Positions 30,700-61,053 of a stretch of 64,000 bases of DNA are shown here, piece by piece. Source of the stretch: an uncultured Candidatus Saccharibacteria bacterium (GTDB taxonomy: Bacteria > Patescibacteriota > Minisyncoccia > Phycocordibacterales > UBA918). Location: positions 167-64,166 of the forward strand of contig CAZCWH010000001.1 of NCBI GenBank assembly GCA_964502345.1, written 5' to 3'. Below the pieces are notes generated by a model that worked only from the letters and a program-made list of their open reading frames with translations, did no database searches and was not told the DNA's origin. The position numbers and the translations under genes are program-made. The stretch's first letter is position 1, and every line of letters begins with the position of its first letter.

Positions 30700-30717
30700 G
30701 CTGATGGTATTTATAAA

Positions 30718-35305: not shown

Positions 35306-35311
35306 AGTGTG

Positions 35312-37019: not shown

Positions 37020-40000
37020 CTAATCTCCAATTGCGTAAAACGTATTCGTCCCCTGGTGTGGATTCCCTGCAACTCCAAATGGAATTGCTATACCCCAGAA
37101 AAGTTGATCACTCACAGAAGGTGTCGTAGAAGTCGGCTTTGTGAGGTCAAGTTCATAATTCGTAGAACTTGCAGAAAGCTGGCTACAGAACGTACACGTG
37201 GTGTATGTAAATGTTGACGTTGCAAAGATTTGCTCATTAACAGGAATGAGTGAGGAATTACCATCAGTAAGGTCAGTTCCTGCTATCGCAATATCGAGAG
37301 CGTCATTTCCGATATTTTCAACCGTTGTTGTTGCATTATAAGAACCTGTGTCGTTATTAACTTCTAGAGCCCCATAGTTAATAGTGCTGTCTACTGTAAT
37401 TGCACGCAAAGTGAGTAGATCTATCGAAGGTGCTGTGCCTGTCGCAATAGCACCGCTTTGATCACTCACCGAAAGTTCTGCGCGCCATGTTTGACCAGCG
37501 TAGGTACCAACATCTGTTGGGTCTGCATGGTAATAGAAATCTGCCGAACACGTTACGTCACATGAACTTCCACTACAATTTTCAAACACGCACTGTGTTG
37601 GAGAAGCTATGTAGCAGTTATTTGGATCACTCGTACATGACGAGAGCACACTTGAGCGGAACATGGTAGTTGTTGCGAGATTCAAATCACCATACCCGTT
37701 GAGGTCCGAGACTGTCCCTGTTGCGTAAATTGTCGTTGTCGCACCAGGTGAAAGAGTGATGTCATTTCCACCATTAAGTGAGAGTGAGGTTACGACCGGT
37801 GTAAACACAAGACTCAATTCTGCAACCTTTGTGTATGCGTCGAGCTCTGCCCCTTCGTTTGTCACACGGAAACAATAGTTCGAATCACTCACGTTAATTG
37901 TGGGTGCGATTACATACTCAAGTTCTGTAAACTCACCTGAATCGACATCTAGGCTTCCTGTGTTATTGCTTGAATCTTCCACTACCTGTCCTGGTGTAAA
38001 CACACCCGAGCCTCCGAGGAGGTCAGTCGTACTTTCCAAGTCTGTAATATTGGAAGAAGACACCATACAAATATCACTCGTACCGCAACTTGCGACATTC
38101 GGAACCTCTACATAGTCATTGTAATCAACAGATTCACAGCTCGGTGCTGCACCCTTTGGTGCAAACTCAATCTCATAATTTTGCGCACTCACTGGAGTTC
38201 CGCTATTTTCTACGAGGAATCGAACGCGAGCAGTTTCCCCTATATCAATTCCAGAAGCAGGGGTATTACGAGCAGAAGTCCATGTTGCACCACCAGGAAC
38301 CTGTTCACCACCTAAGCTCGTAGTTGCAGCGGTTGCCATGAGCGGACGAGCTGAGTAAATATCCCATCCACCGTGGTATCCCCAAAGTGTAAATCCAACA
38401 CCTCCCGAGGTGTAGCTACTGTCCGTCGCACTGGTTGTTGCAACCACACTGCCATTTTTCGATAGCCGTACATATATTGAGTCATCGGTATCCCAATCAA
38501 CTTCAACTTCATACCAACCTGTACTGTACGTTACTGTTGTTGATGCAAGTACGGTACCACTCGTATCACGATGGGTTGCATTTTCAGAAATAGAGAGTCG
38601 ATCAACACCGAAAAGTTCGAGACATACCGCATAACTTGTCGCTCCTGTCTGAACACCAAAGTGGGTACATGATTCGTCCGCTGCTCCACTCACAGTATCA
38701 ATGTATTGGAGCCATCTAAGTGTCTGCCCTTGCGCTACCGTCACGCCAAGATTACGCATGTTCTGATCTGTCTTTGAATTGGTTTGATCAAACGCTTCAA
38801 GCCTATATGTTCGCTCATATGCGCTACTTCCCACCACACTAAAGTCTCCAGTGTCACCAGTGTACTCACTGATATTTCCATCTTCAAAGTTGTCCATGAA
38901 GTCAAACGTCGATGTTGCACTTCCATCACTCACCGTACCTTCCCCGTAGTACATGTATACAGTTGCTGTTGTTGACGTTGCAAGTGTTGGTACCTTGACC
39001 CACACAACAGCTTGTGTACTTGCAGTATATGATTCGGTGAAGTGTTCTACCGCAGTGAGCCCATCTTCTTCTGTAAATCTTAGATCATCAAAATCGGCCT
39101 GCATATCACTGTCATATGGCACGATGACCTTCACGGCGACGTCATGATAGGTTACTGGATCAGAATTTGTTACCGTGACACGCTTTCGCTTACTCCAGTC
39201 AAAGTCAAACCACTCTGAATTTGGTACGCCTTCCCCACCATCGTCGTTTCGGAATCGATACGCTGATTGCTCAATGAGTATACAGTTGCTATCGTCCCAT
39301 CGTATTGAACCACAGGCATCCCCACCATCAATATCGAATGCTTCACCATCAAAGTTTCCTGTATGTGACACAAATGTCCATGCACTCGGCGTAGAGCCAC
39401 TCAACTCTACGTTTGCTCCAGTGATAGCCGTTGTTGTTGCAAAGGCAACTCCAGTCACAAAGAGTCCTGCGTTGTAGTTGAGTGTTGTTGAGGAGAGCGT
39501 TATGAGTGAACCTCCATTTACCGCAAGCGTGAAGTTACCTTCGGTGAGTGAACTTACGGTCGTGAGACCACTTAATTTTAGTCCGTCAACATTCATATTT
39601 GCGAAGCTGTAGTAGAGTGCATTGAGTGTGCCTCCAAGAATATCAATCGCATAGGTACCGCTTCCTTGATTAGAAATAGTTGTATCAAATCCACTTGCTC
39701 CTACGATATTGAGTGATCCACCCTGAAGTGTCGTGGTTGCATTCGCCGCAATGTACACAAATACCTGTCTTGAACTTCCGCCAAGCGCGGTGCCATCGAA
39801 ATCAGTTGCATAGCTCCAGTAGTCAGCACCTGCGGTTCGCTCATAATCTCCATAGATGTAGAGGACACCACTTACACCTGCATGATCTTGTGAGTAAAAT
39901 GAACTTTCTGAATCAGTGATTGTAATCGTGCCCGTACTATCCCACGCACGAAGCTCCGTACTTGAACCAACGCGGATATTGTTGTAGGTATCTCCACCCG

Positions 40001-43000: not shown

Positions 43001-46000
43001 CGAGAATCGTAGTTGTTGCGTTACTTCCAGGTGTTGTGGTCCCAATGATACTTCCGTTACCAAGGACGAGGTTTGCGAGAGTCCATGCAGTTGTACCTCC
43101 AAGCGTATTTGTTTGGTAGATTGTTGTTGTACCACTTCCCATTGAGAGGACTCCATTTCCAGAAAGTGAGCCATTTACCACCGTGATATCAGCCGTTCCT
43201 GTGACCGTACCAAGCGTTACATCAATGTCCTGTAATGCTCTAATATCACCATTAATATTCCATCCACCACCAAGACCATTGAACTCAATTGTATTAAATG
43301 TAATCTCCTGAGTTCCAGTAGTGGTGATAGTCTTCCCCGTAGTCGTTGCATTCATAATGACCGTCGTTGAAGCACTCGCGAATGTTGCACCATCATCCAT
43401 AGTGAAACTTCCTCCAATTGTGTATGTAGATGAGGCAGATCCTGTAAAGATTGCATTATTGTCAATATGCAAAGATCCATCAAACGCGGTGGACGAGGCA
43501 TTCCCGTTAATGGTGATATTACCGTCTGGTGCAAACGTACTGCTCGAAGCAATGTGGAGCTCAGTATTAGCGAGCACGGTAAGTGTGCCTGTCGCGGCAA
43601 CAAACGAGATGTCACTATCGTTATCATTGTCATATGCTGACATCTTTAGAATGGTCATTGGCTCCGTATCCTCATGACGCGTAATAACTCTATTCTGATA
43701 GATATCAAGATCAGTGATATCTGAAATTGGTGTACGTGTTACTACTGTCCCCTTTGCACCACCGTTTGTATTGAGGTACACAGTTACCACCGGATCCCCC
43801 ACAACAACGACACCAGGAATACTAAATGAACCGTTTGCTGAGGCACAGGTACCTGTATACGAACTTCCACCTTGCACGACGATACGAATATTTGCTGTCA
43901 CATCATCACACACTGGATTTCCCATTCGGGTAACCCCGTCATCACTGTAGACGACACCAGAAACAGTAATGACAAGTGAGCTATCGTCCCATCTGACTGA
44001 ACCTGGGTCACCAGTATCATTATCAAATGCTTCACCATCAATATTTCCTGTTGAGTCTCGGAACCACCAGTACGATGTCGGTGTACCATCTGTCTGCGTT
44101 ACATTGGTCGCTGAAATTGCGGTCGTTGTTGAGAAATTGACTCGATATATTTGGAACCCTGGATTTGCGTTGATTGATGAGGAGGCAACAGTAAATCCAG
44201 TTCCTGCAGATATTCCTGGTTTTACAAAACCATCGTTCAGTGAAGATATGGTGCCTGCTCCTCTAAAAGTTACCCCTGCTGTCCCAAGATTACTAAATTC
44301 ATAATTATTGAATGTCGTCGCCGTTGAAGAAGCGATTACAACATACGTACCGCTTCCTTGATTAGCAACTGTTGTCGTAGCTGTCGAAGATCCAATCATT
44401 GAGAAAGTACTTCCAGAGAGTGTCGCACTCGTTCCTGAAGCAAGTCGTACATCAACTTGGCGTGAACTTCCACCAAGCGCTGTGCCATCAAAATCAGTTG
44501 CATAGCTCCAATGCTCAGTACCGGACGTTCGTGTATAGTCACCAAAAATATAGAGATCCCCGTCTACTGCAGAGTGATCCTGTGAGTAAATTGATGCTGT
44601 ATCGAGTGTTGAATATGTGTTTGCACTTGAATTCCACATGGAGATGTCAGTATCACCAACAACGAGAAGCGTGCCGTACACATCTCCCGCGTGACTCTTA
44701 CTATTAAGGGCACTGTCTCCACCAGTGAGTCGAAGCGTTGATCCTGTCCATGTTGTATTGCTGCCATTTGCTGCATGTGTAAATGTTCCACTTGCAGTAA
44801 GTGTCAGACCACTATTGAGCGTAAACTGGGACACATTGGTCAAAGACACTGCTACTGTTCCTGTTGCAGACTCGGTGACGGTGAAGTCTCCGGACGCACT
44901 ATTAAAATCAAGAGTTGAAAATGCTGAAGTACCAGCTGCAATAGTTTCACTGCCTCCAGAAGAATTGAATCTGACAGTGCCCCCATTTGCATCAAATATT
45001 GCATTATTGTCAAACGAACCACCTATCGACAGCACCCCTGTTGGGAATACAGCATCTCCACCGAGCTCAGAAATATAGTTTCCGAGAATCGTAGTATTCG
45101 TATCGCTAAATCTGCGTGAGCGAGAGCTCTCTTCTCCGCCAGCGGTGTAAAACGATGTCGAGGTTGCCATGTTGCGGTATTCTGCATCACGCCATGCATC
45201 AGCTCGAGTAGTTGTTGATACGCGCACCTCGTCAATTCGACCATCAAATGAAATAGGTGGTACACGATTCGGTCGAAGCCCAGATATGGTGAAGTTTGCA
45301 GTTGGGTCTGAATTGCCGGCTGTAAAACTACCGCGAGCAACACCGTTTACGCGGGTCGTGACAGTACTATTTCTCACTGCATTAATTGAGACATGGTACC
45401 AATTTCCTGCAACTAGATCAGCACCAGTTGTCACATTACACGTCGTCACGGTAGTAAATGCACGCACGCACACTTCATCAGGAGCCGGTGTGCCACCAAC
45501 TGATGTCCAGTCATAAACTCCCGCTGTTGAAACTCCGTACAAACTATACCCATAGGTATTAGTCTCCTGAGGTGCAGCTCCTGCGAGCGTATCAGGATTA
45601 AACCACATTGATACGTTGTACTGCGTCTGCCCATTGAGGAAGCTGCCTGTGTATTGAATCGGTGTTGTATCAAAGGATTGTGCTTTCTTTACACGCCCAG
45701 TTGAAACCTCGAGCGGGTTGTTCGAAACGGGGCTACCCGCTGTGTCTGTCTTAACACCAGTGATTGTACGAACACTATTCTGTACCACGCTCGTCGTGAG
45801 ATCATTCATGTGACTGACGAGTGTATAGCCATTACTCCATACACTTCGTGCTCCATATGGAGAAGTTGATGCGTAGGCACTCGCACCACTGTTACCATAG
45901 TAGATATAGAATGTCGTATCAGTCGTTGAAGAGACTGAAGTCGCTCTAAAGTAGAGTTCACCATCAGTGCCACTCGTGTCAATTGATACGAGTTCGATTG

Positions 46001-52000: not shown

Positions 52001-55000
52001 TTCCTTGGCTACCGGTACCTGCAACCTTTAAACTGATACCACTCATTGAATCATGCGTACCAGCGGCACTCGCGGTATGTCCGGAGGCTTCTGTCCCCGC
52101 CGTCGTGACGTTCCGATTATTGATATGGAATCCAAGACCCCAGTTAGTACCCGGTACATACGTTGCCGCAACAGACGATGGACTCGGCCAGGTTGCATTT
52201 GACCATGTGGTTACTGTACGTACACCAGCACCAGCTGTTGAACGTGCGAGATTAATGACCTCAATTGCTTGATCTCCTTGATTGATAGTGAGACCAGCTG
52301 AGAATGGACCTACTGTGGCATTTGCAGTGGCGCCACTGAAGTAGTTGCGTGCATCAGTCACTACAGTTGTTTGATCAACTCCTGCAAAAACAGCTGCATA
52401 TACGTAATTGTAATAGGAGGTTCCACCAGTAATGGTCACATCGAGGTCGTCCCCCGAGGCAGCAGCAATTCCCGCATCATTGAGGTAGAAAATGTACGTA
52501 TGATTTCGGTTGGTAGCATTTGTCGCATCCCCCACAGCAAGGGTCATAGCCTGACCGCCGTACGTCACACTCACGGACTGTGTCCCTACTGTGGTTCGAG
52601 TAGAACCAATTGCAACTACGAGCATTCGGTCAGTGCCTGCTGCTATTGCATAGCTCGCATTAACTGTTCCTGCTGGGTACGCAGTACTTGCGTACTGTTG
52701 CAGCCAGTCTGCTTGAGTCGTGATGACCGTTGAAGGAGTTCCGATGGTCTCAATCTCAACACTGTCTCCACTTGTCGTTGCATTTGAAAGTGTGGCTTCA
52801 TCAAACTGTGCATCAGTGGTTTGGTACCATTCAGGTACTCCTATAAACGTATTAACCGACATACTACGTGCAGTTGAAGTAGCACTCCATGTGTTGGTAC
52901 CAGAAGGATCTCGTGCGCGTACTGCCCACCAATAGGTTGTGCCTACCGTAAGCTCATCTCCAGCCTGGAGTGCATAGGTTGTCGTCGCCCCTGAGGCAAA
53001 TGTTGATGCACTCCATCCTGCATCAGTCGGATAATTTGAAGACTGCTTCGTCAAGATTGGCGAAGTGAGATTTGAACTTGTACTTACAATAAGCTCAAAT
53101 TCCATTGCGTCACCCTCAAAGTCAGTCGCAGCAAAACCTCCAAGTGTCGGTCGTGTTGTCGTGGCACGAAGATTATTAAACGCAGGATAAAGCGCGAGAT
53201 TTGGCGTATACGGTATCTGATTTGGAACCGCCCAGTCCACAGTCCAATCATTAAGCGACGGTGAGGTGGTACCAAAACCTAGATCGAAGGTCATCCGCAG
53301 ACAGATGCGATTATAGGTCGTCGTTGAAAGTGTATTGATGAACAACTCTGACGCCGTAACATCAAATCCAGTACTATTTCCTGGAAGTGCCGAGTCAGGA
53401 AGTATGGTGTCGCAGGCAAGCGTACTCGTATAGAACAACTGGAGTCGTGTATCGGTATGCGTTGGCTCAGTCGTATTCCAAGTCACTACTCCCCAGTCAC
53501 TCTGTCCGGATACAGAGTCAAAATCTACTTCAGGCGACATTACGGTACCTTTCACGTGTGAAGGATTAATAGCGAACTGGAATCCAGATGAGCTATCGTT
53601 CACAGAGAATGCAACCGTGGCAGCACCAGTTGCGCCCGCAGTCACCATCGAACGTGTTCCCCACGTACCAGCAGATCCATTTCCTCCAGCCCCTACCTGA
53701 ACTTCTGCACTCTCACTCCATCCAGTTCCTGAAACACTAAATGGGTATGTATCATCCCCATCACCAGAGATGACGTAGAATGCGAGCGTATTATTGACCG
53801 TTGTATTGACGCTTGTAACGGCGTGACTGACAGCTCCTGCATCGTCATTATCTGCTCCGACTACATTGATTGGATTTGTTGTTGATGCTCCCGTTACTCG
53901 AATATAGTATCCCCAATAATCGGCTGAGATTTGAGCAGGAACACTCGTTGTCGCTCCTTCTGTTCCGTCTGCAACTCGATAAAATGCAGCGGTGTGTGTA
54001 TCGGATGTGGTGTTTCCCGATTCATTGATGAGCGTGAATCCTGTTGGTTTAAGTGTCGTGTTATTCCACTGCGCGTTTGCAGTATTGTCATCATTACCCA
54101 CGATGATCATCAAAAGGTCCCCGATTTCTACATTTGATGGCTTCGTGAGTACGAGTGATGCACCTGGAGATGTGGTAGCTACTCTCCAGCCACTCACAAC
54201 GGTCGGGACAGCAGTACTTGTTGTCGCGAGCTGTGCAGTACCGGAGGTCGAAGCTGTATTTGTGAGTGTTCCTCTCTCAAATTGGCTACCTTCAGTCTGG
54301 AACCACGTCGATGGATCAATACCAGTCGTATACGTAAAACTTCGGACACTACTCCATTCACCCCAAATATTACCAACTGTTTCTTTCGCTCGAACACGCC
54401 AATAGTACGTCACTCCATTTGTAAGCGCAGTCTGTATGGTAAAGCGCATCTGTTCATTTTCGGTATACGGATGTGTATCGGTCGATGAGGCGGTATTGCT
54501 AAAACAATTCGGTGTACATCCGCTTTCATTGTCTGATGTCCGATCTCCAACAGGTGAAGTACCTACATCAACATCATCATCCCATTGGAACTGGTATACC
54601 AAGGTATCACTACCGTCAGGATCATTTGCAGTAAATGTGAAGGATGGTGTTGAAGTACCAGTCTGTTCATTATCAAAAAGCGCAATAGTAGTAGGTGCCT
54701 CAGGCACAGCACCTCCTACATCTCGCTTTGCAAACACTGCAGTTCTGAATGGAGGTATCGTTGCTACCGCTGAGAAGTTTGTGACGTCGACTTGATGCGT
54801 ATGTGCATTAGTCGTGACTGTATTATCAATAGTCACAAGGTCACGAGTCTGTGTACCACTTGGCCCCTGCGAGGTTACGGTAATGTTACTGTGAGTCGTC
54901 GTTGCAGCTCCGCCAGTGCCTCCATAAGTCGTGCTCGCTTTTACAAAGCGATTTTCAAATGGATCAGATGGTCCTGAGAGATCACCCCACCCGAGCGGTG

Positions 55001-58000
55001 CTTCATCTGTCCACATTGCAATCATTGCATCGGTTGGAGATGACGTTGCATTTAGTTTTCCGAGTACTGCTTCTCGATATGGTGGTTCATGGTTGACTGT
55101 ACCAGTGACAGAACTCACGATGTGTGTGTGGTTAGCAGACGCAGTATTTACCAAATTGTCACCTGCCGCTGCGGTAGTAAAGTTTCCTGTCGCCACAAGA
55201 CTTCCGGTAATACTGTGCGTGTGTGTATTAGAACTACTTGCGGTTCCTACCGTCGTTGTTGCTGCACCTCGTATATACCTTCCATCTTGTGCGGAATACT
55301 GTGTCCAACCAGTTGGAACGGCCGCATCAAAAATCGCAATGGCTCCCGCTGGGATTGTTGGTGGTGAACCAGCAGAATTGTACTGAATCACTACTAATTC
55401 CCGATAGGCGGGAAGATTGTTATCAGTTGAAATTGTGGGAGTATATGTGTGTGCGTGAGCAACTGTAGGCACATTCGTAGCACCTCCACCACCAGAGTTT
55501 ATTGACGTACTTGAAGCAGAGGCGGTAACTCCACCCGTTGCAGTGTGTGTGTGTGTCGAGACCCCACCATTAGTACCTGCAGTAGAAGAACCCTGAATGA
55601 ATCGTTGATAGAACACGTCCCCTGGCAGACACGATACACAGGTCCATCCTGATGGGATGTTTGTCCCGTCCCAGTACAAGAGCATATTTCCTGTCGCATC
55701 TGAAGCAATCTGCCACTGTCGGTGTTCAACAAATACAATATTTGTGGATGTAGCAACAACAAGAGGGGCGTCCCCAGTCGCAACTTCATCAAGAACAACG
55801 GTGCTGGTAGCCGTTTCTACATCTTCTTCCATTTCAACACCAGTATCTTCCGGGATTATTTCTTCTTCTAACAAAGGTACAGATTCATCTTCCACCTCAG
55901 TAGTAAACTCTGTTGTTTCAGCTTGTGTGAATAAGAACTTACCGATAACTTTCTTAAAGACCGAGACATACGATGATTCGTCACCCTCAGTCTGAAGAGA
56001 TGATTCGGTTGGTTCGGGAGCTACTTCCTCTTCTGGAGCCTCAGCTTCAGACTCAGTCGAAGGAACAGGTTCTGGTTCTACAGGGGTTTGCTCAGGTGTG
56101 ATTTCACCTGTCTCGCTCTCAACTGTAGACGAATCATCTGTTGGCACAGGCTCTGATGTTTCAGGAGTTACTGGCTCTACCGGAGACTCGTCTACCACTG
56201 GAGTGGATGATGCTTCAGGCTCGATAGGACTCTGTGTATCAGGTTCCATAGAACCTGATACATCAACCGGACCCTGACCTTCCGTGCCCTCCTCTATGAC
56301 TTCTGGTGACTGCACTTCCTCCCCAGTAACGGCAGCAACTGGCTCAATTTCATTTGAAATAAGTTGAGCGGGGCCAAGCTCATAGAGATATGGTGATATA
56401 TCGGGAGCATCAAATTCATACGAGACCGTAAGGCTCGAACTACTCGCCATATCCACCTTCCAGACGAGTTCAGTGTAGCTTTCCTGTGGTCTGATCTCTG
56501 CATCAGTATTAAATATTGCAAAACTTTTTGGTACACGCTCGACTATCTCACCAGTAAATGATCGACGCAGTGCATGGACGGTGAGTTCCATTGCGTATGG
56601 TGACGGTGGATAAATTCGAGTTGGCCCACTGCGCTCAATCACAATAGGTTGATTGCTTGCTACAAAGAACGTCTCTAGCGTATGTGAAATTACACTTCCA
56701 GACTCATCGACTCGCTCAAGGTACATTTCGTATTCACCTGGAACTCCTGTTACAAATTGGCTGCTGTAGTCCGGAACATCAATGACATTGTTTCCATTAC
56801 AGTAACCCGAAGGGAGAACTTGTGTGCTCGATATAAAGCCATTTGGGTCAGAAATGTATAGATTGAGATTTGCGTCACAGAGTGTATTTCCATTTGAGGT
56901 AAGCGCACCCATTGAAATATCTGCAACATCACCACTTTCATAGGTCGTTTGATTGCTGTTGATTGAGAGAAGTCCCCACTGGAATTCAAATGTATCAGTC
57001 GAGACGAGTCCTCCTTCATTGATTTCGAGCTCAACGGTGTAGATACCCGGGAAAAGCTGTTCTTTATCAGCCTCTGTCAACACAACTGAAATGAGCCCCT
57101 CTTGTGTGACCGTTACCTCAGGTGAGATCTCAACTTCCTCCCCTTCATTGTGGACAAATTCCACAGACTCTACTGTTGCCAGATCTCGTCCAAAGAAACT
57201 CCTAAACGCCTGCACGAGGAAATTACGTTGTGAGTTGTACCGGAGATTAAATTGTGGCAATTCCTCACGAAGGAAATCAAGTTTCTCACTCAAGAGTTCC
57301 ATACTCACAGGGCCATCCAAGTGCTTCAACATTTCATCAGATGAAAATCGTTCCTTGAGAAGTTCCTTATCAAATACGACCGTCCCAACCTCAAGCCACG
57401 CAGCATCTATGTAGAGAGACTGAAGTTGTTTCACGTCTCCATCAAATGAAATCGTGATGACAAGTTGCTTGAGAAGCTCTGGGTCTGTTATTGATGGGAG
57501 TGGAATGAGGTAATAGCCACCATTAATCGCATTCGATATTTCAGCATCAAGTAATATGCTTCCCGCATCTCGAGAGAATTCTCCAAACGAATATTCTACA
57601 GAAACGAACCCGGGCTTCTGTCCATTACTCATGTCATATTGACCAGCGAGCGAGAGACGAAGTTGTAAATTATTAATAAACTGTCCGGAAGCGAGCCCTG
57701 GGATACCAAAATTACTCAAAGTAATCTGTGGAGCAGCATTTGTTTCTTGTATAGGTTGAGCAACTGTTTGTCCACCAGTAGGTGCAGGTTCTTCGTCCTC
57801 GATTGAAGAGGTCGCTTCTTCAGCTGCTGGCAATATTTCTTCAGTCTCAGTTACGACTTCATCAGAAATAGTTTCTTCGGGTATTGAACTACTGGTCTCT
57901 TCCTCTGCAATAGGGATCTCTTCAGATGTTAATTCCTCCTCATTCAAAGGCTCGGAAGATTCCTCGTTAGTTTCCAAGATAAGTTCAGTCGTTTCAGCTT

Positions 58001-58766
58001 GCGTGAACAAGAACTTACCGACAACTTTCTTAAACACTGAGAAATAGGAAACTTCCTCCGGTGCTATTTCAGGAGAATCATTACTTGATTGCGAATCAGA
58101 TTCCTCGACAGCTGGAACGACTGTTTCTGTGACTGGGTCTTCTTCAGGTATTTCAGGAGAAACATCATCCTGCGGAGCTTGAGTATCACCTTCTGCATCT
58201 GGTAAATTCTCATTCTGCTCTGCATTACCCTCCTCAGTGCTATCTACTGACTCAGACTCGACCGAAGTATCCTCATCTGCTGTTCCAGAGTTTGAATCAG
58301 CATGTTGCAGCGCATACTCCCGATCAATGTGTGCAGAATTACTCGTATTAAACTCATGCGTAAGTGACTGCTCACTCAAATCCTGATTATTCACTGTCTG
58401 CACATTCAACCATCCTTGAGAAGAAATATCTGAAGGATACACATCAATGGACTCATTCTGAGGTTTAAAACTGCTTTCCTTTTTGGCTTGTGCAACAGAT
58501 GCATCGAATGAAGAGAGAAGCGTAAATGAAAGCAGAACACAGAAAGCAACGCATGCGAAGAGGACTTTTCTCTTACTGCGCTGAATATTTGTAACATGAG
58601 AAAAATTAAAAATTTCAACAAAATTTGTTACATACTTAATTTTTTGTGTACTAAAATCAACAAAACGCCACAGCTTTGATTCCAGCGCTCTAAATATGAT
58701 TATTTTATTGTCCGCTCTTGTTTTTCTTGAGAAAAATCTCATCAACTCAACAAGCAACCCGACCAC
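37020..58766 (-). CDS. giant secreted surface protein (7248 aa, 21.7-kb ORF). Signal peptide, acidic low-complexity stalks, phage-tail-collar-like HxH repeats, FN3/Ig-like domains, DUF2341+LamG pairs, long beta-helix-like repeat region, and the type-B C-terminal module.
   Basis: uninterrupted ORF. DUF2341-like W..R..ItI......LtNFPV.V.L...........dG.D.R....dg...P.E...........YF......YIYYGN followed by LamG_3-like ...DEVRVSTTTRADAWRDAEYRNM (twice). HTHT/NHTHI/NAHTHQ repeats each ending PPYR/PPFR. The start codon is uncertain because a 75-aa basic leader precedes the signal peptide. Confidence 0.9.
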   Translation of the reverse strand: MVGLLVELMRFFSRKTRADNKIIIFRALESKLWRFVDFSTQKIKYVTNFVEIFNFSHVTNIQRSKRKVLFACVAFCVLLSFTLLSSFDASVAQAKKESSFKPQNESIDVYPSDISSQGWLNVQTVNNQDLSEQSLTHEFNTSNSAHIDREYALQHADSNSGTADEDTSVESESVDSTEEGNAEQNENLPDAEGDTQAPQDDVSPEIPEEDPVTETVVPAVEESDSQSSNDSPEIAPEEVSYFSVFKKVVGKFLFTQAETTELILETNEESSEPLNEEELTSEEIPIAEEETSSSIPEETISDEVVTETEEILPAAEEATSSIEDEEPAPTGGQTVAQPIQETNAAPQITLSNFGIPGLASGQFINNLQLRLSLAGQYDMSNGQKPGFVSVEYSFGEFSRDAGSILLDAEISNAINGGYYLIPLPSITDPELLKQLVITISFDGDVKQLQSLYIDAAWLEVGTVVFDKELLKERFSSDEMLKHLDGPVSMELLSEKLDFLREELPQFNLRYNSQRNFLVQAFRSFFGRDLATVESVEFVHNEGEEVEISPEVTVTQEGLISVVLTEADKEQLFPGIYTVELEINEGGLVSTDTFEFQWGLLSINSNQTTYESGDVADISMGALTSNGNTLCDANLNLYISDPNGFISSTQVLPSGYCNGNNVIDVPDYSSQFVTGVPGEYEMYLERVDESGSVISHTLETFFVASNQPIVIERSGPTRIYPPSPYAMELTVHALRRSFTGEIVERVPKSFAIFNTDAEIRPQESYTELVWKVDMASSSSLTVSYEFDAPDISPYLYELGPAQLISNEIEPVAAVTGEEVQSPEVIEEGTEGQGPVDVSGSMEPDTQSPIEPEASSTPVVDESPVEPVTPETSEPVPTDDSSTVESETGEITPEQTPVEPEPVPSTESEAEAPEEEVAPEPTESSLQTEGDESSYVSVFKKVIGKFLFTQAETTEFTTEVEDESVPLLEEEIIPEDTGVEMEEDVETATSTVVLDEVATGDAPLVVATSTNIVFVEHRQWQIASDATGNMLLYWDGTNIPSGWTCVSCLPGDVFYQRFIQGSSTAGTNGGVSTHTHTATGGVTASASSTSINSGGGGATNVPTVAHAHTYTPTISTDNNLPAYRELVVIQYNSAGSPPTIPAGAIAIFDAAVPTGWTQYSAQDGRYIRGAATTTVGTASSSNTHTHSITGSLVATGNFTTAAAGDNLVNTASANHTHIVSSVTGTVNHEPPYREAVLGKLNATSSPTDAMIAMWTDEAPLGWGDLSGPSDPFENRFVKASTTYGGTGGAATTTHSNITVTSQGPSGTQTRDLVTIDNTVTTNAHTHQVDVTNFSAVATIPPFRTAVFAKRDVGGAVPEAPTTIALFDNEQTGTSTPSFTFTANDPDGSDTLVYQFQWDDDVDVGTSPVGDRTSDNESGCTPNCFSNTASSTDTHPYTENEQMRFTIQTALTNGVTYYWRVRAKETVGNIWGEWSSVRSFTYTTGIDPSTWFQTEGSQFERGTLTNTASTSGTAQLATTSTAVPTVVSGWRVATTSPGASLVLTKPSNVEIGDLLMIIVGNDDNTANAQWNNTTLKPTGFTLINESGNTTSDTHTAAFYRVADGTEGATTSVPAQISADYWGYYIRVTGASTTNPINVVGADNDDAGAVSHAVTSVNTTVNNTLAFYVISGDGDDTYPFSVSGTGWSESAEVQVGAGGNGSAGTWGTRSMVTAGATGAATVAFSVNDSSSGFQFAINPSHVKGTVMSPEVDFDSVSGQSDWGVVTWNTTEPTHTDTRLQLFYTSTLACDTILPDSALPGNSTGFDVTASELFINTLSTTTYNRICLRMTFDLGFGTTSPSLNDWTVDWAVPNQIPYTPNLALYPAFNNLRATTTRPTLGGFAATDFEGDAMEFELIVSTSSNLTSPILTKQSSNYPTDAGWSASTFASGATTTYALQAGDELTVGTTYWWAVRARDPSGTNTWSATSTARSMSVNTFIGVPEWYQTTDAQFDEATLSNATTSGDSVEIETIGTPSTVITTQADWLQQYASTAYPAGTVNASYAIAAGTDRMLVVAIGSTRTTVGTQSVSVTYGGQAMTLAVGDATNATNRNHTYIFYLNDAGIAAASGDDLDVTITGGTSYYNYVYAAVFAGVDQTTVVTDARNYFSGATANATVGPFSAGLTINQGDQAIEVINLARSTAGAGVRTVTTWSNATWPSPSSVAATYVPGTNWGLGFHINNRNVTTAGTEASGHTASAAGTHDSMSGISLKVAGTGSQGTIMSTEVDHDSVPNQSTWGEVSWSVTEPAGSETRMRLYYSSTTVCDTIITDGALPGNSTGFTSDTSPLDISTLSTTTYNRICLQMELQQDSASTSPILEDWTVSWVLSPQFVQQDYQWYVNAASTTPTDIWPVGGVDLNENEAIDSSSAVLNADVLRLRMSLVGSSTNASADSELFNLQYAEGDTCSVDLTWYDVGDAASTTALWRGYENGIAMDDWYDENWSSRTRITIQASQIDAGLTNFPVYVNLDDLSSAFFSTVKTDGSDIRVTESDGVTEVPIELVSIDTSGTDGELYFRATSVSSTTDTTFYIYYGNSGASAYASTSPYGARSVWSNGYILVSHMNDLTTSVVENSAGTLNGVKTSAGNPAEVSTGPVSEAQDFSLDLIQYTGTMLTNATQYAVSLWFNPDALTGGGDLGTYGLSLYGISPTAAPYQWLTAGGTGNLTELRLCAYEDTATTCVPTSGAGLATGNWYHTSVNAIDGGTTTVRVNGVQRLSYINGSENNVGANFTIGDLRGTPQRNIGFDGRIDEVRVSTTTRADAWRDAEYRNMATSTDFYTVSDESMGGSADGYELTSLLLTDSDVLETYEEGNPTVPNPNAINVGEAAEWDFALQNNDATPGAQYCFRMVNADGTELDTYTQFPTLVTNASPLIEDMFAPFDNEKLASTSPWFEFIGYDENGDEVDYQIQIDNDYAFSSTVIDTDSETNLDDFLNIATPSDKTPFNNYARMRYTIPSSLSNGVTYWWRVRSKDASGSAAYGDWSTPQSFTVDTSLTVSTWYQTTEEQFETNTHDGTEATASDLVAFASGSTVATTTSTAIDFSDATIGNVWGELSFNETGSANDILYHIEYENDGDWFLIPDSALSGNAAGYDSSPVDLSGLDVTLYDVIRIRANFRTGAPTLLDWTLAWAESIEVPTLSAPFDNEKFATTSPTFGFSSSDPENDDIEYEVSWSTDYNFATGSTTRNSSTSPTGFVNLVNGGDTNPFDSGDTISYKIQPGDALSASTTYWWRARAKDPSGSDNFSTWSEPWSFTTATSGEPVQVSTWFQTLGLQFDKGTLSGVDAATNSVGIGGGIVVESGWTSNTAIPGSSLTLTKPSGVVSGDLLLILVGSDDNSATAQWNDTTLKPSGFTLINESGNDTVSDAHAAAFYRVANGSEGTTINVPAQSSDDFWGFYIRVTGASTTDPINVIGADYNGGSAASHAVTGITTTEDQSLAFYLLSGDGGDVYPFTVSGTGWTESDEIQAGGGTANASGVWGTQLVASAGGTGAATVGLSVADSATGFQFAVNPAVLSSGSIKSDTIDFDDGSGPGWGELSWRDSEPGGSEVRYQIEFLNGLGVWGLIPDSALPGNSTGFTTSPIDLEALNTTTYNQIRIVGNLNCSGANCPTLDDWTVTWIAGFTVSGTALEYDGVSSTTAGTVAVAVNGVLQSGATGAILGDGTWEIENIPLFSGDVITTFISGANDVDEAVGVTVFDGTPDVTGMRLQKRHLTIGSNDFVTATNTQIGMYDYTNDEDLFFDVNAGNDLTMCADTGCTDASIVVLTRNTYAPGTGADVTTHDLRNYGTFTAGSNSIRVSGSWDNNATTTMTGSTVIFTATSSTESIDETGSVTSGFNNVTFGETSGTATWNTLSTLDVDGNLGVSFGTLARGTTSIFVAGNLTIGASGYWTGMGTTTFDGINPSTWTDNNAVKQNVGRVLVDGTTKTLVLGSNVTMQSMTIGANDAFDASITGFSASVYEDWINNNTFTARTGTVSFIATTTNRIITTGSSAFYNLTFSGVGGSWSFTAPTLTVSNHLTIATGTVTLPTATTTVAGSFLNTGGVFAHNNGTVVMSSTAGGRSITQSGGTFLNAFYNLVFTGSGSWAFTESNATTSNTFRIQAGTVTLPSGTLTVSGDFTTTGTGAFTHNSGEVIFVVQNSKTVSTNGSSFNNVRTRGGIATSWYNDSWTRRIPITIQASQIDAGLTNFPVYVNLDDLSSAFFSTVKTDGSDIRVTESDGVTEVPIELVSIDTSGTDGELYFRATSVSSTTDTTFYIYYGNSGASAYASTSPYGARSVWSNGYTLVSHMNDLTTSVVQNSVRTITGVKTDTAGSPVSNNPLEVSTGRVKKAQSFDTTPIQYTGSFLNGQTQYNVSMWFNPDTLAGAAPQETNTYGYSLYGVSTAGVYDWTSVGGTPAPDEVCVRAFTTVTTCNVTTGADLVAGNWYHVSINAVRNSTVTTRVNGVARGSFTAGNSDPTANFTISGLRPNRVPPISFDGRIDEVRVSTTTRADAWRDAEYRNMATSTSFYTAGGEESSRSRRFSDTNTTILGNYISELGGDAVFPTGVLSIGGSFDNNAIFDANGGTVRFNSSGGSETIAAGTSAFSTLDFNSASGDFTVTESATGTVAVSLTNVSQFTLNSGLTLTASGTFTHAANGSNTTWTGSTLRLTGGDSALNSKSHAGDVYGTLLVVGDTDISMWNSSANTYSTLDTASIYSQDHSAVDGDLYIFGDYTRTSGTEHWSYATDFDGTALGGSSRQVDVRLASGTSATLSGSTFSMIGSSTATTTVANQGSGTYVVIASSTATTFNNYEFSNLGTAGVTFRGAGTISSLNDGFVKPGISAGTGFTVASSSINANPGFQIYRVNFSTTTAISATNVTQTDGTPTSYWWFRDSTGNIDGEAFDNDTGDPGSVRWDDSSLVITVSGVVYSDDGVTRMGNPVCDDVTANIRIVVQGGSSYTGTCASANGSFSIPGVVVVGDPVVTVYLNTNGGAKGTVVTRTPISDITDLDIYQNRVITRHEDTEPMTILKMSAYDNDNDSDISFVAATGTLTVLANTELHIASSSTFAPDGNITINGNASSTAFDGSLHIDNNAIFTGSASSTYTIGGSFTMDDGATFASASTTVIMNATTTGKTITTTGTQEITFNTIEFNGLGGGWNINGDIRALQDIDVTLGTVTGTADITVVNGSLSGNGVLSMGSGTTTIYQTNTLGGTTAWTLANLVLGNGSIIGTTTPGSNATTTILGKLTINTAHYLDAGSSLWNLSGTGNVFVESGTFLEDTSTVRYSGAGATNVISTTYYNLDLKAQGSSPTYTGTGLGIIVSNNLTVGGPNATTFTLDTSDPAFDVNGNITIDSTGTLIGSASANFTVAGSWDNNGTYTGSSGTVTFDGAGTPSIAAGNSPFANLTINGSGAFTVSEPATTTGAFSLTNAGSFTLASGQSLAVGGLFTNGQGGGVTTWTSSVLHFYGSGSYSINASTTSDTYEKLSVGSGTQIRMWNSTAGTYDTHANGSLYSQDHGGVNGDLYIYGAYSKTSGTDYWSYTTDFDGTNISGTPRNVDVYIRGGGSVLYTGGGLSVLGLDSASTTIQNQGSGTYSFRIGGSASTTWSYYDMQDMDASGLTLSGTPNVVTLAYGDITVSQNSGTAMTVGGTVITQNPAKTFTNNYFATSTGITPAYNVTATGTTASSWRFTNHAGSIDGEDFDVDPDGNPGYIVWDNSSSSITVSGTVYSDEGTTPMGVSVCDGSTQSIHLRVGGLTSYTGSCNGSGLYSIPGVLYSPNDSLVVYIDGETEKAATVTEDPVSNITGLDLYENRVIVRHESSDPLSIVDMSLWDSSDDADIPFTAVDGTPDTLTLPANRKLIVWTGKEFEPNGNITVTGGGGGSAYDGTLELYTNAVFDATGSETHSIGGSLISGTGASIDDETSTFVFTTSGAGRTVDTNSSSLYDATFNGSGSWTVTNTTFDIGNDFTVAQGTVTLPSATTTVTGSLSVTGGSFTSSGGTMVFNSGSAETIRPRSSSFGTLVVNGVGSFSLQGGYATTTGDVRIVDGSFTSATGTLTIGGNFINSDVFVHGSGELRFTSAGAVVVTASTSDLYSTTFAGGGAYTFTNTNVALLGSLTIQSGAVTLATGTMSIGGSLLNTGGSFNNASGSILFNSSDTGEIINPGNSLFHNVTLASGGGGWTISANATTTGNFSLTSASSFTQSSSTRLYVGGVFTNLVGGAPTTWTGSTLVINSGSSYTINSKSAGGDTYNNIRVGSSTELRAWDSTGTITITDSESSFYSQDHAGVSGVLYIYGDYERTAGADYWSYATDFDGTALGGSSRQVFVYIAANATTTLQGGSLNIVGASGFDTTISNQGSGTYAIDILGGTLNALYYSFANMNVDGLKLSGLTTVSSLTEGNFTLAVNGGSLITLSSTTLNYNAGLFVTGVAFATTTAITGANVELSGSTPSAWTFVSHTGNFDGEAFDIDGGDACGSIRWDDSNCILIEQSAYRFRNDDGGEGVPNSEWFDFDWSKRKRVTVTNSDPVTYHDVAVKVIVPYDSDMQADFDDLRFTEEDGLTAVEHFTESYTASTQAVVWVKVPTLATSTTATVYMYYGEGTVSDGSATSTFDFMDNFEDGNISEYTGDTGDFSVVGSSAYERTYRLEAFDQTNSKTDQNMRNLGVTVAQGQTLRWLQYIDTVSGAADESCTHFGVQTGATSYAVCLELFGVDRLSISENATHRDTSGTVLASTTVTYSTGWYEVEVDWDTDDSIYVRLSKNGSVVATTSATDSSYTSGGVGFTLWGYHGGWDIYSARPLMATAATTSLGGEQVPGGATWTSARNTPASGIDIGETARVRFLVENSGTPVSAQNYEIEFAPKGAAPSCESVDYNDYVEVPNVASCGTSDICMVSSSNITDLESTTDLLGGSGVFTPGQVVEDSSNNTGSLDVDSGEFTELEYVIAPTINVSDSNYCFRVTNEGAELDAYTKVAELSLVFTPVVTSLSLNGGNDITLSPGATTTIYATGTVSDLNGYGDLNLATTTMFRSSVLSSCTSDPNNCYIASPTQCVFENCSGSSCDVTCSADFYYHADPTDVGTYAGQTWRAELSVSDQSGAIATGTAPSIDLLTLRAITVDSTINYGALEVNNDTGSYNATTTVENIGNDALDIAIAGTDLTDGNSSLIPVNEQIFATSTFTYTTCTFCSQLSASSTNYELDLTKPTSTTPSVSDQLFWGIAIPFGVAGNPHQGTNTFYAIGD
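45831..46150. repeat. intragenic direct repeat, copy 2 (about 320 bp, 100% identical to 51000..51320) inside a ~1.1-kb diverged duplication
   Basis: direct comparison of the two stretches encoding DUF2341 unit 2. Flanking sequence is ~80% identical. Confidence 0.8.
51000..51320. repeat. intragenic direct repeat, copy 1 (identical to 45831..46150)
   Basis: same as above. It encodes ...IQASQIDAGLTNFPVYVNLDDLSSAFFSTVKTDGSDIRVTESDGVTEVPIELVSIDTSGTDGELYFRATSVSSTTDTTFYIYYGNSGASAYASTSPYGARSVWSNGY. Confidence 0.8.
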
Positions 58767-60840: not shown

Positions 60841-61030
60841 ACGATATCATTCTACTTGAAATGTTCAAAATATTACTGCGACTTATACACAAATGTTGCT
60901 TTAAGAAGATATCAGAAAAATGCTGACAGAAATTACTATCGCTGCAACTCCGAGGGGCGGTACACCTTTCGCAGAGATTGGCCCAGGCCACTCTCTCTGC
61001 CTACTGCATTCACCTTGTGTTCAAGGTCCT

Positions 61031-61053
61031 AAAAAAGCACCCCGTGCTTTTTT
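61031..61053. terminator. bidirectional intrinsic terminator AAAAAAGCAC-ccc-GTGCTTTTTT
   Basis: perfect 10-nt complementary arms with a GC core, flanked by an A-run and a T-run. A degenerate copy sits at ~28321-28345. Confidence 0.55.

What the first reader, a model, noticed from the sequence alone, without database searches (positions are those of the whole stretch)
37020..58766. 21.7-kb single ORF encoding a 7248-aa mosaic surface protein
It is one of the largest bacterial ORFs and occupies a third of the window. In protein order it has a basic leader, a signal peptide, an E/S/T-rich acidic stalk (with a duplicated ...SY[FV]SVFKKV[VI]GKFLFTQAETTE... segment), a globular region, and a second P/E-rich stalk. 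Then come three tail-collar-like HxH units, a duplicated ~250-aa unit (...SGWxxxTxxPGxSLxLTKPS...GDGxDxYPFxVSGTGWxES...), DUF2341+LamG twice, ~1500 aa of beta-helix-like repeats, a third DUF2341-like unit after YRFRNDDGGE, and the type-B C-terminal module. Its size, stalks and lectin-like modules fit a host-attachment fibre of an epibiotic bacterium.
Basis: partly seen in the sequence, partly recalled or inferred. Interest (0 to 1): 0.7.

Follow-up and report, generated by a model that had tools for sequence, protein, structure and literature searches.

The report
Giant surface protein of a Patescibacterium
The 21.7-kb gene is real and encodes a 763-kDa modular cell-surface protein of a Kaiserbacteria-like ultrasmall bacterium; giant proteins of this kind are already known in that group, and attachment to a partner cell remains a reasonable but untested inference.

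Summary
The ORF at 37020..58766 (-) is intact: 7,248 codons, no N, no tandem array. Its full length is not an assembly artefact. A second contig (L003) carries a collinear orthologue over aa 1-5846 at 68.5% identity. Others cover aa 3586-7248, and relatives of 5,600-6,500 aa exist. The closest genomes are Candidatus Kaiserbacteria / Paceibacteria (Patescibacteria).

Verified features: a conserved basic leader, one hydrophobic segment, two acidic stalks, three DUF2341, two LamG_3, four FN3-like units, internal duplications, and a conserved Cys-rich C-terminal array of Ig-like sandwiches.

The beta-helix label could not be tested, and that region spans about 2,500 aa, not 1,500.

The gene sits in a gene order conserved in five other loci: cohesin protein, giant, FN3 protein, MacB-type ABC pair, a 627-aa protein sharing its C-terminus, dockerin protein.

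Giant DUF2341-bearing Patescibacteria proteins, including a 6,999-aa Kaiserbacteria one, are already published. This is a new member of a known kind; the adhesin function is inferred.

The parts
37020..58766 (-). Whole ORF: 7,248 aa, 763 kDa, pI 4.06, net charge -539
   Evidence: It is collinear with L003 over aa 1-5846 at 68.5% identity and with L002 over aa 3586-6465 at 80%.
58566..58766 (-). Conserved basic N-terminal leader (aa 1-67; motif KTRxxxxxxIFRALxS). The likely start is either GTG 58766 or ATG 58742.
   Evidence: The leader aligns with P0002, L003 and P0237. Net charge is +9.
58482..58565 (-). The only hydrophobic segment (aa ~65-92): a Sec signal or signal-anchor, followed by VAQA|KKE
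   Evidence: The Kyte-Doolittle scan finds one segment in 7,248 aa.
57762..58316 (-). Acidic stalk 1 (aa 151-335), carrying the SYFSVFKKVVGKFLFTQAETTE motif at aa 240
   Evidence: Composition and motif are. Identity to L003 is only 29%.
56352..57761 (-). Globular region (aa 336-805), with no family assignment
   Evidence: It is 69% identical to L003. It has no Pfam hit. It is present in P0001-P0003, P0020 and the giant relatives.
55752..56351 (-). Acidic/Pro-rich stalk 2 (aa 806-1005), with the second copy of the stalk motif at aa 932
54702..55751 (-). HxH triple-repeat module (aa 1006-1355): three ~110-aa all-beta units. This is an undescribed domain.
   Evidence: AF2 gives pLDDT 86.5 and pTM 0.82. 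There is no solved relative. The family has 824 cluster representatives.
51672..54701 (-). Insert block (aa 1356-2365): FN3-like, ~250-aa unit, ~110-aa sandwich, FN3-like, variant ~250-aa unit, sandwich. It is absent from the 5,600-aa core relatives.
50307..51356 (-). DUF2341 + Laminin_G_3 cassette, copy 1 (aa 2471-2820)
   Evidence: Pfam hits are. The cassette is copy-2-like rather than orthologous to L003 copy 1.
47802..50306 (-). Sandwich, FN3-like units 3 and 4, ~250-aa unit B and sandwiches (aa 2821-3655)
   Evidence: Ig_Rha78A_N hits at E 1.5e-12. Identity to L003 is 71-87%.
46197..47801 (-). T/G/S/N-rich ~80-aa repeats (aa 3656-4190); solenoid-like, fold unverified
   Evidence: No Pfam hit.
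45126..46196 (-). DUF2341 + Laminin_G_3 cassette, copy 2 (aa 4191-4547). It is absent from L004, L007, P0237 and P0239.
39267..45125 (-). Three ~800-aa super-repeats (aa 4548-6500)
   Evidence: Self-similarity is 44-47%. Relatives are 45-68% identical. There is no family or PDB match.
38337..39266 (-). YRFRNDDGGE motif, third DUF2341 and an unassigned ~200 aa (aa 6501-6810)
   Evidence: Pfam E values are 5.8e-17 and 1.2e-13. The motif is at aa 6503. No LamG hit was found here.
37023..38336 (-). Conserved Cys-rich C-terminal array of Ig-like sandwiches (aa 6811-7248). The last ~250 aa are the 'type-B' module.
   Evidence: There are 88 homologues, up to 71% identical. AF2 gives pLDDT 80.8. Foldseek matches integrin legs, RTX-adhesin extenders and pilins. 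The module is shared with ORF 30718-32601.
45829..46151 (.). 323-nt exact DNA repeat, partner at 50998-51320. The spacing is 5,169 nt, which is 1,723 codons.
   Evidence: Interpreted as an intragenic gene-conversion tract.
28538..36823 (-). Conserved downstream partners: FN3 protein, ABC ATPase, FtsX/MacB permease, 627-aa type-B protein, 312-aa protein, dockerin protein
   Evidence: Pfam hits are. The same order occurs in L001 and L004-L007 at 43-81% identity.
58850..63972 (-). Conserved upstream partners: membrane-anchored cohesin protein, HSP20, dockerin protein, FGE-sulfatase-like protein
   Evidence: Pfam hits are. The same order occurs in L003 at 66-90% identity.

Best explanation
The gene encodes a Sec-exported, non-enzymatic, modular cell-surface fibre of a Kaiserbacteria-like Patescibacterium.

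Proposed mechanism:
- A long bipartite N-terminus (conserved basic leader plus one hydrophobic segment) takes the protein across the membrane. It either stays as an N-terminal anchor or is cleaved after VAQA.
- Two acidic, low-complexity stalks space the folded part away from the membrane.
- The folded part is a string of beta-sandwich and repeat modules: the HxH triple-repeat head, FN3-like units, LamG_3/DUF2341 lectin-type cassettes, about 2,500 aa of repeats, and a terminal Ig-like array. Together these offer many weak binding sites for glycans or proteins on another surface, most plausibly that of a partner cell.
- Module number and type change by intragenic duplication and gene conversion.
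- The protein works with the conserved neighbours (membrane-anchored cohesin proteins, dockerin proteins, an FN3 protein, a MacB-type ABC pair and a small protein with the same C-terminal module).

Shown: the intact gene, collinear orthologues, the export signal, the module inventory, conserved gene order, and cassette conversion.

Inferred: surface retention, extended shape, ligand binding, the partner cell as target, and cooperation with the neighbours.
For: - The ORF is intact and the orthologues are collinear.
- The taxon is Patescibacteria/Kaiserbacteria.
- There is a single N-terminal hydrophobic segment and a conserved leader.
- Extracellular-type modules are present: DUF2341 x3, LamG_3 x2, FN3-like.
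- The C-terminal model matches Ig-like rods of integrins, RTX adhesins and pilins.
- No enzyme, toxin or defence family hits in Pfam, NCBIfam or PHROGs.
- Gene order is conserved with membrane and surface proteins in five other loci.
- There is module-level variation and gene conversion.
- Literature: giant DUF2341/FhaB proteins of Patescibacteria are inferred adhesins, including a 6,999-aa Kaiserbacteria protein (PMC11809585, main text and Fig. S8). Vampirococcus giant membrane proteins are linked to a fibrous surface (PMC8080830). Adhesins are essential for epibiotic growth by Tn-seq in a Saccharibacterium (PMC10633639).
Against: - There are no expression, localisation or binding data.
- No Kaiserbacteria host is known, and some Parcubacteria are argued to be free-living (title of PMC12625730, seen).
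- The part that would be distal if the N-terminus is the anchor (aa 4548-7248) is the best conserved region across distant relatives, up to 67.5% identity. That is unusual for a host-specificity determinant.
- The C-terminal module is shared with smaller proteins, as sorting or anchoring domains often are. The topology could therefore be the reverse.
- About 60% of the protein has no fold assignment.
Confidence: 0.55

Rival explanations
1. It is an envelope-building or spacing protein. In this reading it is a structural component of a conserved cohesin-dockerin surface scaffold, a coat or matrix, rather than an adhesin aimed at a partner cell.
For: - The gene sits among membrane-anchored cohesin proteins and dockerin proteins, in an order conserved in five loci.
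- The C-terminal 2,700 aa are strongly conserved.
- The protein is extremely acidic and T/S/G-rich, like many S-layer and sheath proteins.
- Two proteins in the island share the C-terminal module.
Against: - The giant has no cohesin, dockerin or SLH domain of its own.
- Lectin-type cassettes (LamG_3, DUF2341) and module-level variation fit ligand binding better.
- A single 763-kDa chain is an expensive way to build a lattice.
Confidence: 0.2
2. It is a surface-tethered depolymerase. In this reading the repeat region forms a right-handed beta-helix with polysaccharide lyase or hydrolase activity, as in phage tailspikes or the cell-wall-degrading giant proteins proposed for Omnitrophota.
For: - About 2,500 aa of T/G/N-rich repeats have ~80-aa units compatible with a solenoid.
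- Giant proteins of predatory bacteria have been linked to cell-wall degradation (10.1101/2023.11.21.568195).
Against: - No Beta_helix, pectate-lyase, glycoside-hydrolase or peptidase family hits at E<=10 in short tiles.
- None appears in the precomputed Pfam of 52 homologues.
- The profile has no PDB match.
- The fold itself is unverified.
Confidence: 0.1
3. It is a polymorphic toxin or effector delivery protein (CDI/FhaB-, Rhs- or MARTX-like) whose long filament presents a C-terminal toxin.
For: It is very large, has an extended signal region resembling those of large exoproteins, and has an adjacent ABC transporter. FhaB domains are common in other giant Patescibacteria proteins (PMC11809585).
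Against: - The C-terminus is conserved at up to 71% identity, not polymorphic, and folds as Ig-like sandwiches.
- There are no TPS, FhaB, Rhs or RTX hits, and no GGxGxD motif.
- No immunity-like small gene follows. The next gene is a conserved FN3 protein.
- The ABC pair is MacB/FtsX type, not a type I secretion exporter.
Confidence: 0.03
4. It is an assembly artefact or pseudogene: a chimeric or repeat-collapsed contig that happens to stay in frame.
For: - There is one 323-nt exact direct repeat inside the ORF.
- Most database homologues are contig-end fragments.
- L002 has frameshifts near the 3' end.
Against: - L003 is collinear over 5,846 aa with almost no gaps.
- L004, L006 and L007 are open for at least 3,782 aa up to the locus edge.
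- Full-length relatives of 5,600-6,500 aa exist.
- There is no N and no tandem array.
- A two-copy direct repeat with a unique spacer allows only one linear path. Only the copy number of the spacer could be wrong (inference).
Confidence: 0.02

Closest known systems
Giant DUF2341/FhaB-bearing proteins of Patescibacteria (Dutkiewicz et al. 2024, PMC11809585). Examples include the 6,999-aa Kaiserbacteria protein OGG71089 shown in their Fig. S8.
   Same: Same phylum and apparently the same lineage (Paceibacteria, UBA9973/Kaiserbacteria). Over 4,000 aa, DUF2341 domains, annotated 'hypothetical', an inferred adhesion or host-interaction role, and evidence for domain reshuffling by recombination.
   Different: - This protein has no FhaB (COG3210-type) region detectable in Pfam.
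- I could not fetch OGG71089, so orthology to it is likely but not shown.
- The paper reported no full-length homologues for its own proteins. This family has several collinear ones and a conserved gene neighbourhood.
Giant membrane proteins of Vampirococcus lugosii (Moreira et al. 2021, PMC8080830)
   Same: A CPR bacterium. The longest proteins are predicted to be membrane or surface proteins built from interaction domains (fibronectin, integrin-like and others), and are proposed to give a fibrous surface and host attachment.
   Different: Those proteins reach 4,163 aa, come from Absconditabacteria and have other domain sets. No sequence relationship was tested.
Repetitive Ig-like giant adhesins of Gram-negative bacteria (RTX adhesins such as the Aeromonas and Marinomonas ice-binding type, SiiE, LapA)
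   Same: Long chains of Ig-like sandwiches act as extenders, with ligand-binding modules interspersed. The C-terminal model matches an RTX-adhesin extender repeat (6xi1, E 3.8e-6).
   Different: This protein has an N-terminal Sec-type signal instead of a C-terminal type I secretion signal. It has no RTX nonapeptides and no type I exporter next to it. Its modules are heterogeneous rather than dozens of near-identical repeats.
Phage tail-collar / HxH fibre tips (Pfam Collar PF07484; T4 gp12 and gp37, from general knowledge)
   Same: HxH motifs occur in an all-beta module, in three copies. In trimeric phage fibres, HxH motifs from three chains bind metal ions on the axis.
   Different: No sequence, profile or fold similarity was detected. 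Here the three copies lie in one chain. Any likeness is at most an analogy.
Extended signal peptide regions of very large exoproteins (ESPR of autotransporters and TpsA proteins; from general knowledge)
   Same: The layout is bipartite: a charged stretch and a short hydrophobic stretch, then a second charged stretch and the true hydrophobic core. It is conserved among orthologues and attached to a giant secreted protein.
   Different: There is no ESPR Pfam hit in the first 360 aa at E<=1. The motif differs (KTRxxxxxxIFRAL), and the organism is presumably monoderm.

Membership tests
Giant DUF2341-containing surface proteins of Patescibacteria (PMC11809585) | Encoded by a Patescibacteria genome | tested here: met
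   The best genome matches are Candidatus Kaiserbacteria, Paceibacterota and Patescibacteria MAGs, with neighbours 72-81% identical. Protein hits are named Minisyncoccia, Parcubacteria and Saccharibacteria.
Giant DUF2341-containing surface proteins of Patescibacteria (PMC11809585) | Length above 4,000 aa | tested here: met
   7,248 aa.
Giant DUF2341-containing surface proteins of Patescibacteria (PMC11809585) | One or more DUF2341 (COG5306/MJ1470) and/or FhaB domains | tested here: met
   DUF2341 occurs three times above the Pfam cut-off. No FhaB-type hit was found.
DUF2341 + Laminin_G_3 cassette | PF10102 followed by PF13385, both above the gathering score | tested here: met
   Copies 1 and 2 have DUF2341 and Laminin_G_3 at 43.4 and 43.1 bits against a cut-off of 27.6. 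The third DUF2341 has no LamG hit.
Phage tail collar (Pfam PF07484) | Match to the Collar profile | tested here: not met
   No hit at E<=10 in single units or the whole module, and none at E<=1 in ten homologues.
Phage tail collar (Pfam PF07484) | Fold similarity to solved tail-fibre or collar structures | tested here: not met
Phage tail collar (Pfam PF07484) | Occurrence in phage genomes | tested here: not met
   No tblastn match in 50,697 phage records. No relative in IMG/VR by pattern scan.
Right-handed parallel beta-helix (Pfam Beta_helix / pectate-lyase clan) | Profile match or predicted solenoid fold | tested here: inconclusive
   No Pfam hit, no PDB profile hit, and no such family in 52 homologues. 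A weak ~80-aa periodicity is present.
Sortase-anchored (LPXTG) surface proteins | C-terminal LPXTG, hydrophobic segment and basic tail | tested here: not met
   There is no LPxTG anywhere. The only hydrophobic segment is N-terminal, and the protein ends ...GTNTFYAIGD.
Type I secreted RTX adhesins | GGxGxD nonapeptide repeats, a C-terminal secretion signal and an adjacent type I exporter | tested here: not met
   There is no GGxGxD. The adjacent transporter is ABC_tran plus FtsX/MacB_PCD. An N-terminal Sec-type signal is present.
Two-partner secretion / autotransporter exoproteins (FhaB, AidA) | N-terminal TPS domain or C-terminal beta-barrel | tested here: not met
   No such Pfam or NCBIfam family was found. 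The C-terminus is modelled as Ig-like sandwiches.
Cellulosome-type cohesin-dockerin components | A cohesin or dockerin domain in the protein itself | tested here: not met
   None is found in the giant. Both domains are present in neighbours.

The most novel reading that the evidence does not exclude
The HxH triple-repeat module (aa 1006-1355) may be a new fold in which three tandem ~110-aa units pack into one pseudo-threefold body. In this reading its six conserved HxH/His sites bind metal on the axis, making it a single-chain counterpart of the trimeric, metal-stapled receptor-binding tips of phage fibres. It would serve as the ligand-binding head of a widespread set of surface proteins in Patescibacteria, Chloroflexota and DPANN archaea.

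In addition, the conserved MacB-type ABC pair next to the giant gene may act on the fibre mechanically, as FtsEX-type complexes act on extracellular partners.
Probability: 0.2. Interest if true: 0.65.

Novelty: new member of a known kind. Interest (0 to 1): 0.4.

Why it matters
Patescibacteria make up a large share of bacterial diversity. How the Paceibacteria/Kaiserbacteria branch contacts other cells is unknown, because none is cultured.

This locus gives three concrete things:
- A complete, cross-validated 7,248-aa example of a conserved giant surface-protein family.
- A conserved partner set (cohesin and dockerin proteins, a MacB-type ABC pair, and a small protein sharing the C-terminal module) that can be searched for and imaged.
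- An undescribed, confidently modelled His-rich domain with hundreds of relatives and no solved structure.

It also shows, within one gene, recent cassette conversion of the kind proposed to diversify such proteins. None of this changes the current picture, and the function is still inferred.

Tried and rejected
The search with aa 1-5000 timed out.
- Exact-sequence look-ups of three window proteins found nothing, so the source genome is not in that collection.
- No tRNA or Rfam hit was found in the window to help with taxonomy.
- Pfam scans of 350-4,000-aa tiles missed Laminin_G_3, which short tiles then found (versus 71). Negative results from long tiles were therefore repeated with short ones.
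- NCBIfam and PHROGs gave no family.
- PDB sequence searches with the two halves, and with three profiles, gave nothing meaningful.
The single protein was used instead.
- Consensus promoter and terminator scans of both flanks found nothing.
- Hydrophobic autocorrelation gave only a weak ~80-aa period and does not settle the beta-helix question.
- Tail-collar homology was considered and rejected (see the membership test).
- Toxin-delivery and artefact readings were considered and rejected (see the rival explanations).
- dN/dS was not computed, because the available orthologues are too diverged (68-80% aa identity) for unsaturated synonymous sites.
Full report
**1. The observation**

The minus-strand ORF 37020..58766 exists exactly as described. 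It has a GTG start, a TAG stop and 7,248 codons with no internal stop. At the local base composition, a stop-free run of that length has a chance probability of about 1e-177. All 26 large ORFs of the window lie on the same strand.

The protein is 763 kDa, with pI 4.06 and a net charge of -539. It has a single hydrophobic segment, at aa ~65-92.

**2. Is the contiguous ORF an artefact?**

The window has no N. The ORF has no tandem array. It has one long exact repeat: 323 nt at 45829-46151 and 50998-51320, spaced 5,169 nt apart, which is 1,723 codons.

Independent assemblies carry the same gene:
- L003 (JACCDG012080479.1, a 116-kb contig) aligns in one tblastn segment to aa 1-5846 at 68.5% identity. 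It then runs off the fetched stretch. A module-by-module comparison shows almost no gaps outside the two stalks and one cassette.
- L002 (a 72-kb JGI contig) matches aa 3586-6465 at 80% in one segment. Its called product there is 6,409 aa, and the 3' end is broken by frameshifts.
- Three Kaiserbacteria/Patescibacteria MAG contigs (L004, L006, L007) have a frame that stays open for at least 3,782 aa up to the edge of the fetched DNA. L004 and L007 align collinearly with aa ~3540-7248. For L006 only aa 3549-4342 survived my overlap filter, so its collinearity is not established.
- Database relatives of 5,625-6,510 aa are collinear over most of their length.

The only open point is the copy number of the 5,169-nt unit between the two 323-nt repeats.

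**3. Organism**

Homologues are named Minisyncoccia, Paceibacterota, Parcubacteria, Kaiserbacteria and Saccharibacteria. In the species-representative genome set, the best match to the C-terminus is a Candidatus Kaiserbacteria MAG at 59% identity, with neighbouring genes 65-81% identical. I conclude that the window comes from a Kaiserbacteria-like member of Paceibacteria (Patescibacteria/CPR).

**4. Anatomy (aa coordinates)**

*N-terminus.* Residues 1-67 are basic (+9). They carry a motif (KTRxxxxxxIFRALxS) conserved in P0002, L003 and P0237, so the leader is translated. Translation may start at GTG 58766 or at ATG 58742 (aa 9). The hydrophobic segment ends in VAQA|KKE (FVTA|EEE in L003). Whether it is cleaved or kept as an anchor cannot be told from sequence. 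The bipartite layout recalls the extended signal regions of very large exoproteins, but there is no Pfam match.

*Stalks.* Residues 151-335 and 806-1005 are acidic and low in complexity, with a net charge of -53 each. They are only about 30% identical to L003. Each carries one copy of a hydrophobic motif (SYFSVFKKVVGKFLFTQAETTE). Both copies are also present in L003.

*Globular region.* Residues 336-805 are 69% identical to L003 and have no family.

*HxH module.* Residues 1006-1355 are three ~110-aa units. They share the pattern (W/F)D..P.GW ... R(F/Y)(I/V).G ... THTH ... H.H ... P(P)YR. All five HxH motifs of the protein lie here, and the His positions are invariant or nearly so in 50 homologues.

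AlphaFold2 with that alignment gives an all-beta model with pLDDT 86.5 and pTM 0.82. The high pTM, and the fact that homologues almost always align across all three units at once, suggest that the triple is one structural body. This is an inference.

The module has no relative in:
- Pfam, in short tiles and in ten homologues
- PDB sequences or profiles
- Foldseek against PDB, best E 0.76
- 50,697 phage genomes
- IMG/VR

It is nevertheless common. It has 824 cluster representatives at E<=1e-3 and 495 at E<=1e-10, in proteins of 340 to 7,246 aa. Named hits include proteins labelled Chloroflexota, Dehalococcoidales and Woesearchaeota. 'Tail-collar-like' is therefore not supported. The module is best called an undescribed His-rich domain.

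*Middle region.* Four FN3-like units are present; Ig_Rha78A_N reaches E 1.5e-12 for the best one. There are two clear copies and one diverged copy of the ~250-aa unit, and four ~110-aa sandwiches. There are two DUF2341 + Laminin_G_3 cassettes. Small 'Y.W' sandwiches are shared with the neighbouring 2,471-aa protein.

*Repeat region.* Residues 3656-4190 and 4548-6500 are T/G/S/N-rich. The second block is three ~800-aa super-repeats, 44-47% identical to one another. No family, PDB profile or homologue annotation assigns a fold. The periodicity analysis is weak. The beta-helix label is untested, and the region is about 2,500 aa, not 1,500.

*C-terminus.* A third DUF2341 lies after YRFRNDDGGE. The last 449 aa are among the best conserved parts of the family: 88 hits, up to 71% identical, with many invariant Cys. 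The model (pLDDT 80.8) is a chain of Ig-like sandwiches. It matches integrin legs, an RTX-adhesin extender, filamin and pilins at E 1e-9 to 1e-5. The last ~250 aa also end the 627-aa neighbour, and end short proteins made of a signal, one HxH module and this module.

No LPXTG, RTX motif, TPS domain, beta-barrel, cohesin or dockerin is present.

**5. Mosaic evolution**

The 5,600-aa relatives lack four blocks of the window protein:
- aa 1356-2363
- aa 2471-2820
- about aa 3325-3540
- aa 4190-4547

The window protein is thus an expanded version built by insertion and duplication of modules.

In the window, cassette copy 1 is 92.6% identical (DUF2341 part) and 58% identical (LamG part) to copy 2. 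It is only 53% and 22% identical to the positionally equivalent copy 1 of L003. Copy 2 is 83-87% identical to L003 copy 2. Together with the 323-nt exact tract, this indicates recent intragenic gene conversion of copy 1 by copy 2.

**6. Surroundings**

Upstream lie an FGE-sulfatase-like gene, a dockerin protein, HSP20 and a cohesin protein with a C-terminal membrane anchor. Downstream lie an FN3 protein, an ABC ATPase, an FtsX/MacB permease, the 627-aa protein sharing the C-terminal module, a 312-aa membrane protein, a dockerin protein and a 378-aa protein.

The downstream order recurs in L001 and L004-L007 at 43-81% identity. The upstream order recurs in L003 at 66-90%. The giant gene is thus one part of a conserved surface-protein cluster. 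The whole stretch from about 10 to 63 kb of the window encodes exported proteins.

**7. How it most likely works**

Shown: export signal, module inventory, conservation, gene order and cassette conversion.

Inferred: the protein is exported by Sec. It is held at the surface either by its uncleaved N-terminus or through its C-terminal module and partner proteins. It is kept away from the membrane by the acidic stalks. It presents many sandwich and lectin-type modules that bind glycans or proteins on another surface.

From general domain dimensions, I estimate an extended length of roughly 100-300 nm, similar to the diameter of such cells. This is my estimate, not a measurement.

A role in contact with a partner cell is the best guess (0.55 for a surface binding fibre; lower for host attachment specifically). 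Three papers make this reasonable:
- Giant proteins are linked to a fibrous surface and host attachment in Vampirococcus (PMC8080830).
- Adhesins are essential for epibiotic growth in a Saccharibacterium (PMC10633639).
- Large DUF2341/FhaB proteins of Patescibacteria have been given the same interpretation (PMC11809585).

Against it: there are no data on expression or binding, and no known host. Conservation is also highest in the C-terminal 2,700 aa, which would be the distal part if the N-terminus is the anchor.

**8. Comparison with what is known, and novelty**

Dutkiewicz et al. found 149 Patescibacteria proteins above 4,000 aa, 82 of them with FhaB and/or DUF2341. They drew a 6,999-aa Kaiserbacteria protein (OGG71089) as an example. 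That protein comes from a genome with a near-identical name to that of L006, so it is probably an orthologue. I could not fetch it to check.

The window protein meets the defining features of that class (phylum, size, DUF2341). It is a new member of a known kind.

New here are:
- the cross-validated full architecture
- the conserved neighbourhood with a MacB-type ABC pair and cohesin/dockerin proteins
- the evidence for cassette conversion
- the recognition of the HxH triple-repeat as a widespread, confidently modelled domain without a solved relative

At 7,248 aa it is far below the largest reported bacterial proteins, which exceed 30,000 aa (10.1101/2023.11.21.568195).

**9. Verdict**

Interest is 0.4.

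Noticed in passing
window 10552-63972 (minus strand): Almost the whole stretch is an island of exported proteins. It holds four cohesin-type proteins, several with a C-terminal membrane anchor. It also holds three dockerin-bearing proteins, a WxL-interacting-protein-like pair, a 2,471-aa protein and the giant. This suggests a membrane-anchored cohesin-dockerin scaffold in a Patescibacterium.
   Followed up: partly
window 12916-20331 and 26827-27963: The 2,471-aa protein and a 378-aa protein share a different C-terminal module, ending ...IRYIAVPIF and ...LRYIATPTF, at 31% identity. Large and small proteins of the island therefore come in pairs that share a C-terminus, as the giant does with the 627-aa protein.
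   Followed up: no
window 45829-46151 and 50998-51320: A 323-nt exact repeat lies inside the ORF. Comparison with L003 indicates that cassette copy 1 was recently overwritten by copy 2 (intragenic gene conversion). Recombination between the two tracts would delete or duplicate exactly 1,723 codons in frame.
   Followed up: yes
window 57984-58049 and 55908-55973 (aa 240-261 and 932-953): A hydrophobic 22-aa motif (SY[FV]SVFKKV[VI]GKFLFTQAETTE) sits in the middle of each acidic stalk. Both copies are conserved in L003. It ends in an AxA-like Q-A|E and could be a processing site or a docking helix. No explanation was tested.
   Followed up: partly
window 58767-58849 and L003 ~5850-5908: The short spacer before the giant gene holds a hairpin-forming GC-rich inverted repeat followed by GCGCTATAAT. 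Both are conserved between the window and L003, about 30 nt before the GTG. The consensus promoter scan did not call it, and no Shine-Dalgarno sequence is evident.
   Followed up: partly
window 32674-35305: A MacB-type ABC pair lies two genes downstream of the giant gene and is 73-81% identical across five loci. It consists of a 440-aa ATPase with about 200 aa beyond the nucleotide-binding domain, and a 404-aa FtsX/MacB_PCD permease. It is better conserved than the giant itself. Its role in this surface cluster is unknown.
   Followed up: partly
window 60379-60840: A small heat-shock protein (HSP20) gene lies between the dockerin and cohesin genes. It is 90% identical in L003, the best conserved gene of the cluster.
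   Followed up: no
giant ORF, aa 2646-2793 and 4380-4521: Method note. Laminin_G_3 scores 43 bits in 250-aa tiles but is not reported at E<=1 in 450-4,000-aa tiles of the same sequence. Long-tile scans of such compositionally biased proteins therefore give false negatives.
   Followed up: yes
L002 8650-11000: The close relative on the JGI contig has at least four frame changes in the last ~2.3 kb of the giant gene, and one in the following FN3 gene. The preceding 8.6 kb are clean. This may be sequencing error or decay; it was not resolved.
   Followed up: no
window 40501-41286, 54931-55386 (+) and 50066-50569 (-): ORFs of 151-261 aa overlap the giant gene in other frames. They are most likely spurious products of its biased composition.
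   Followed up: no
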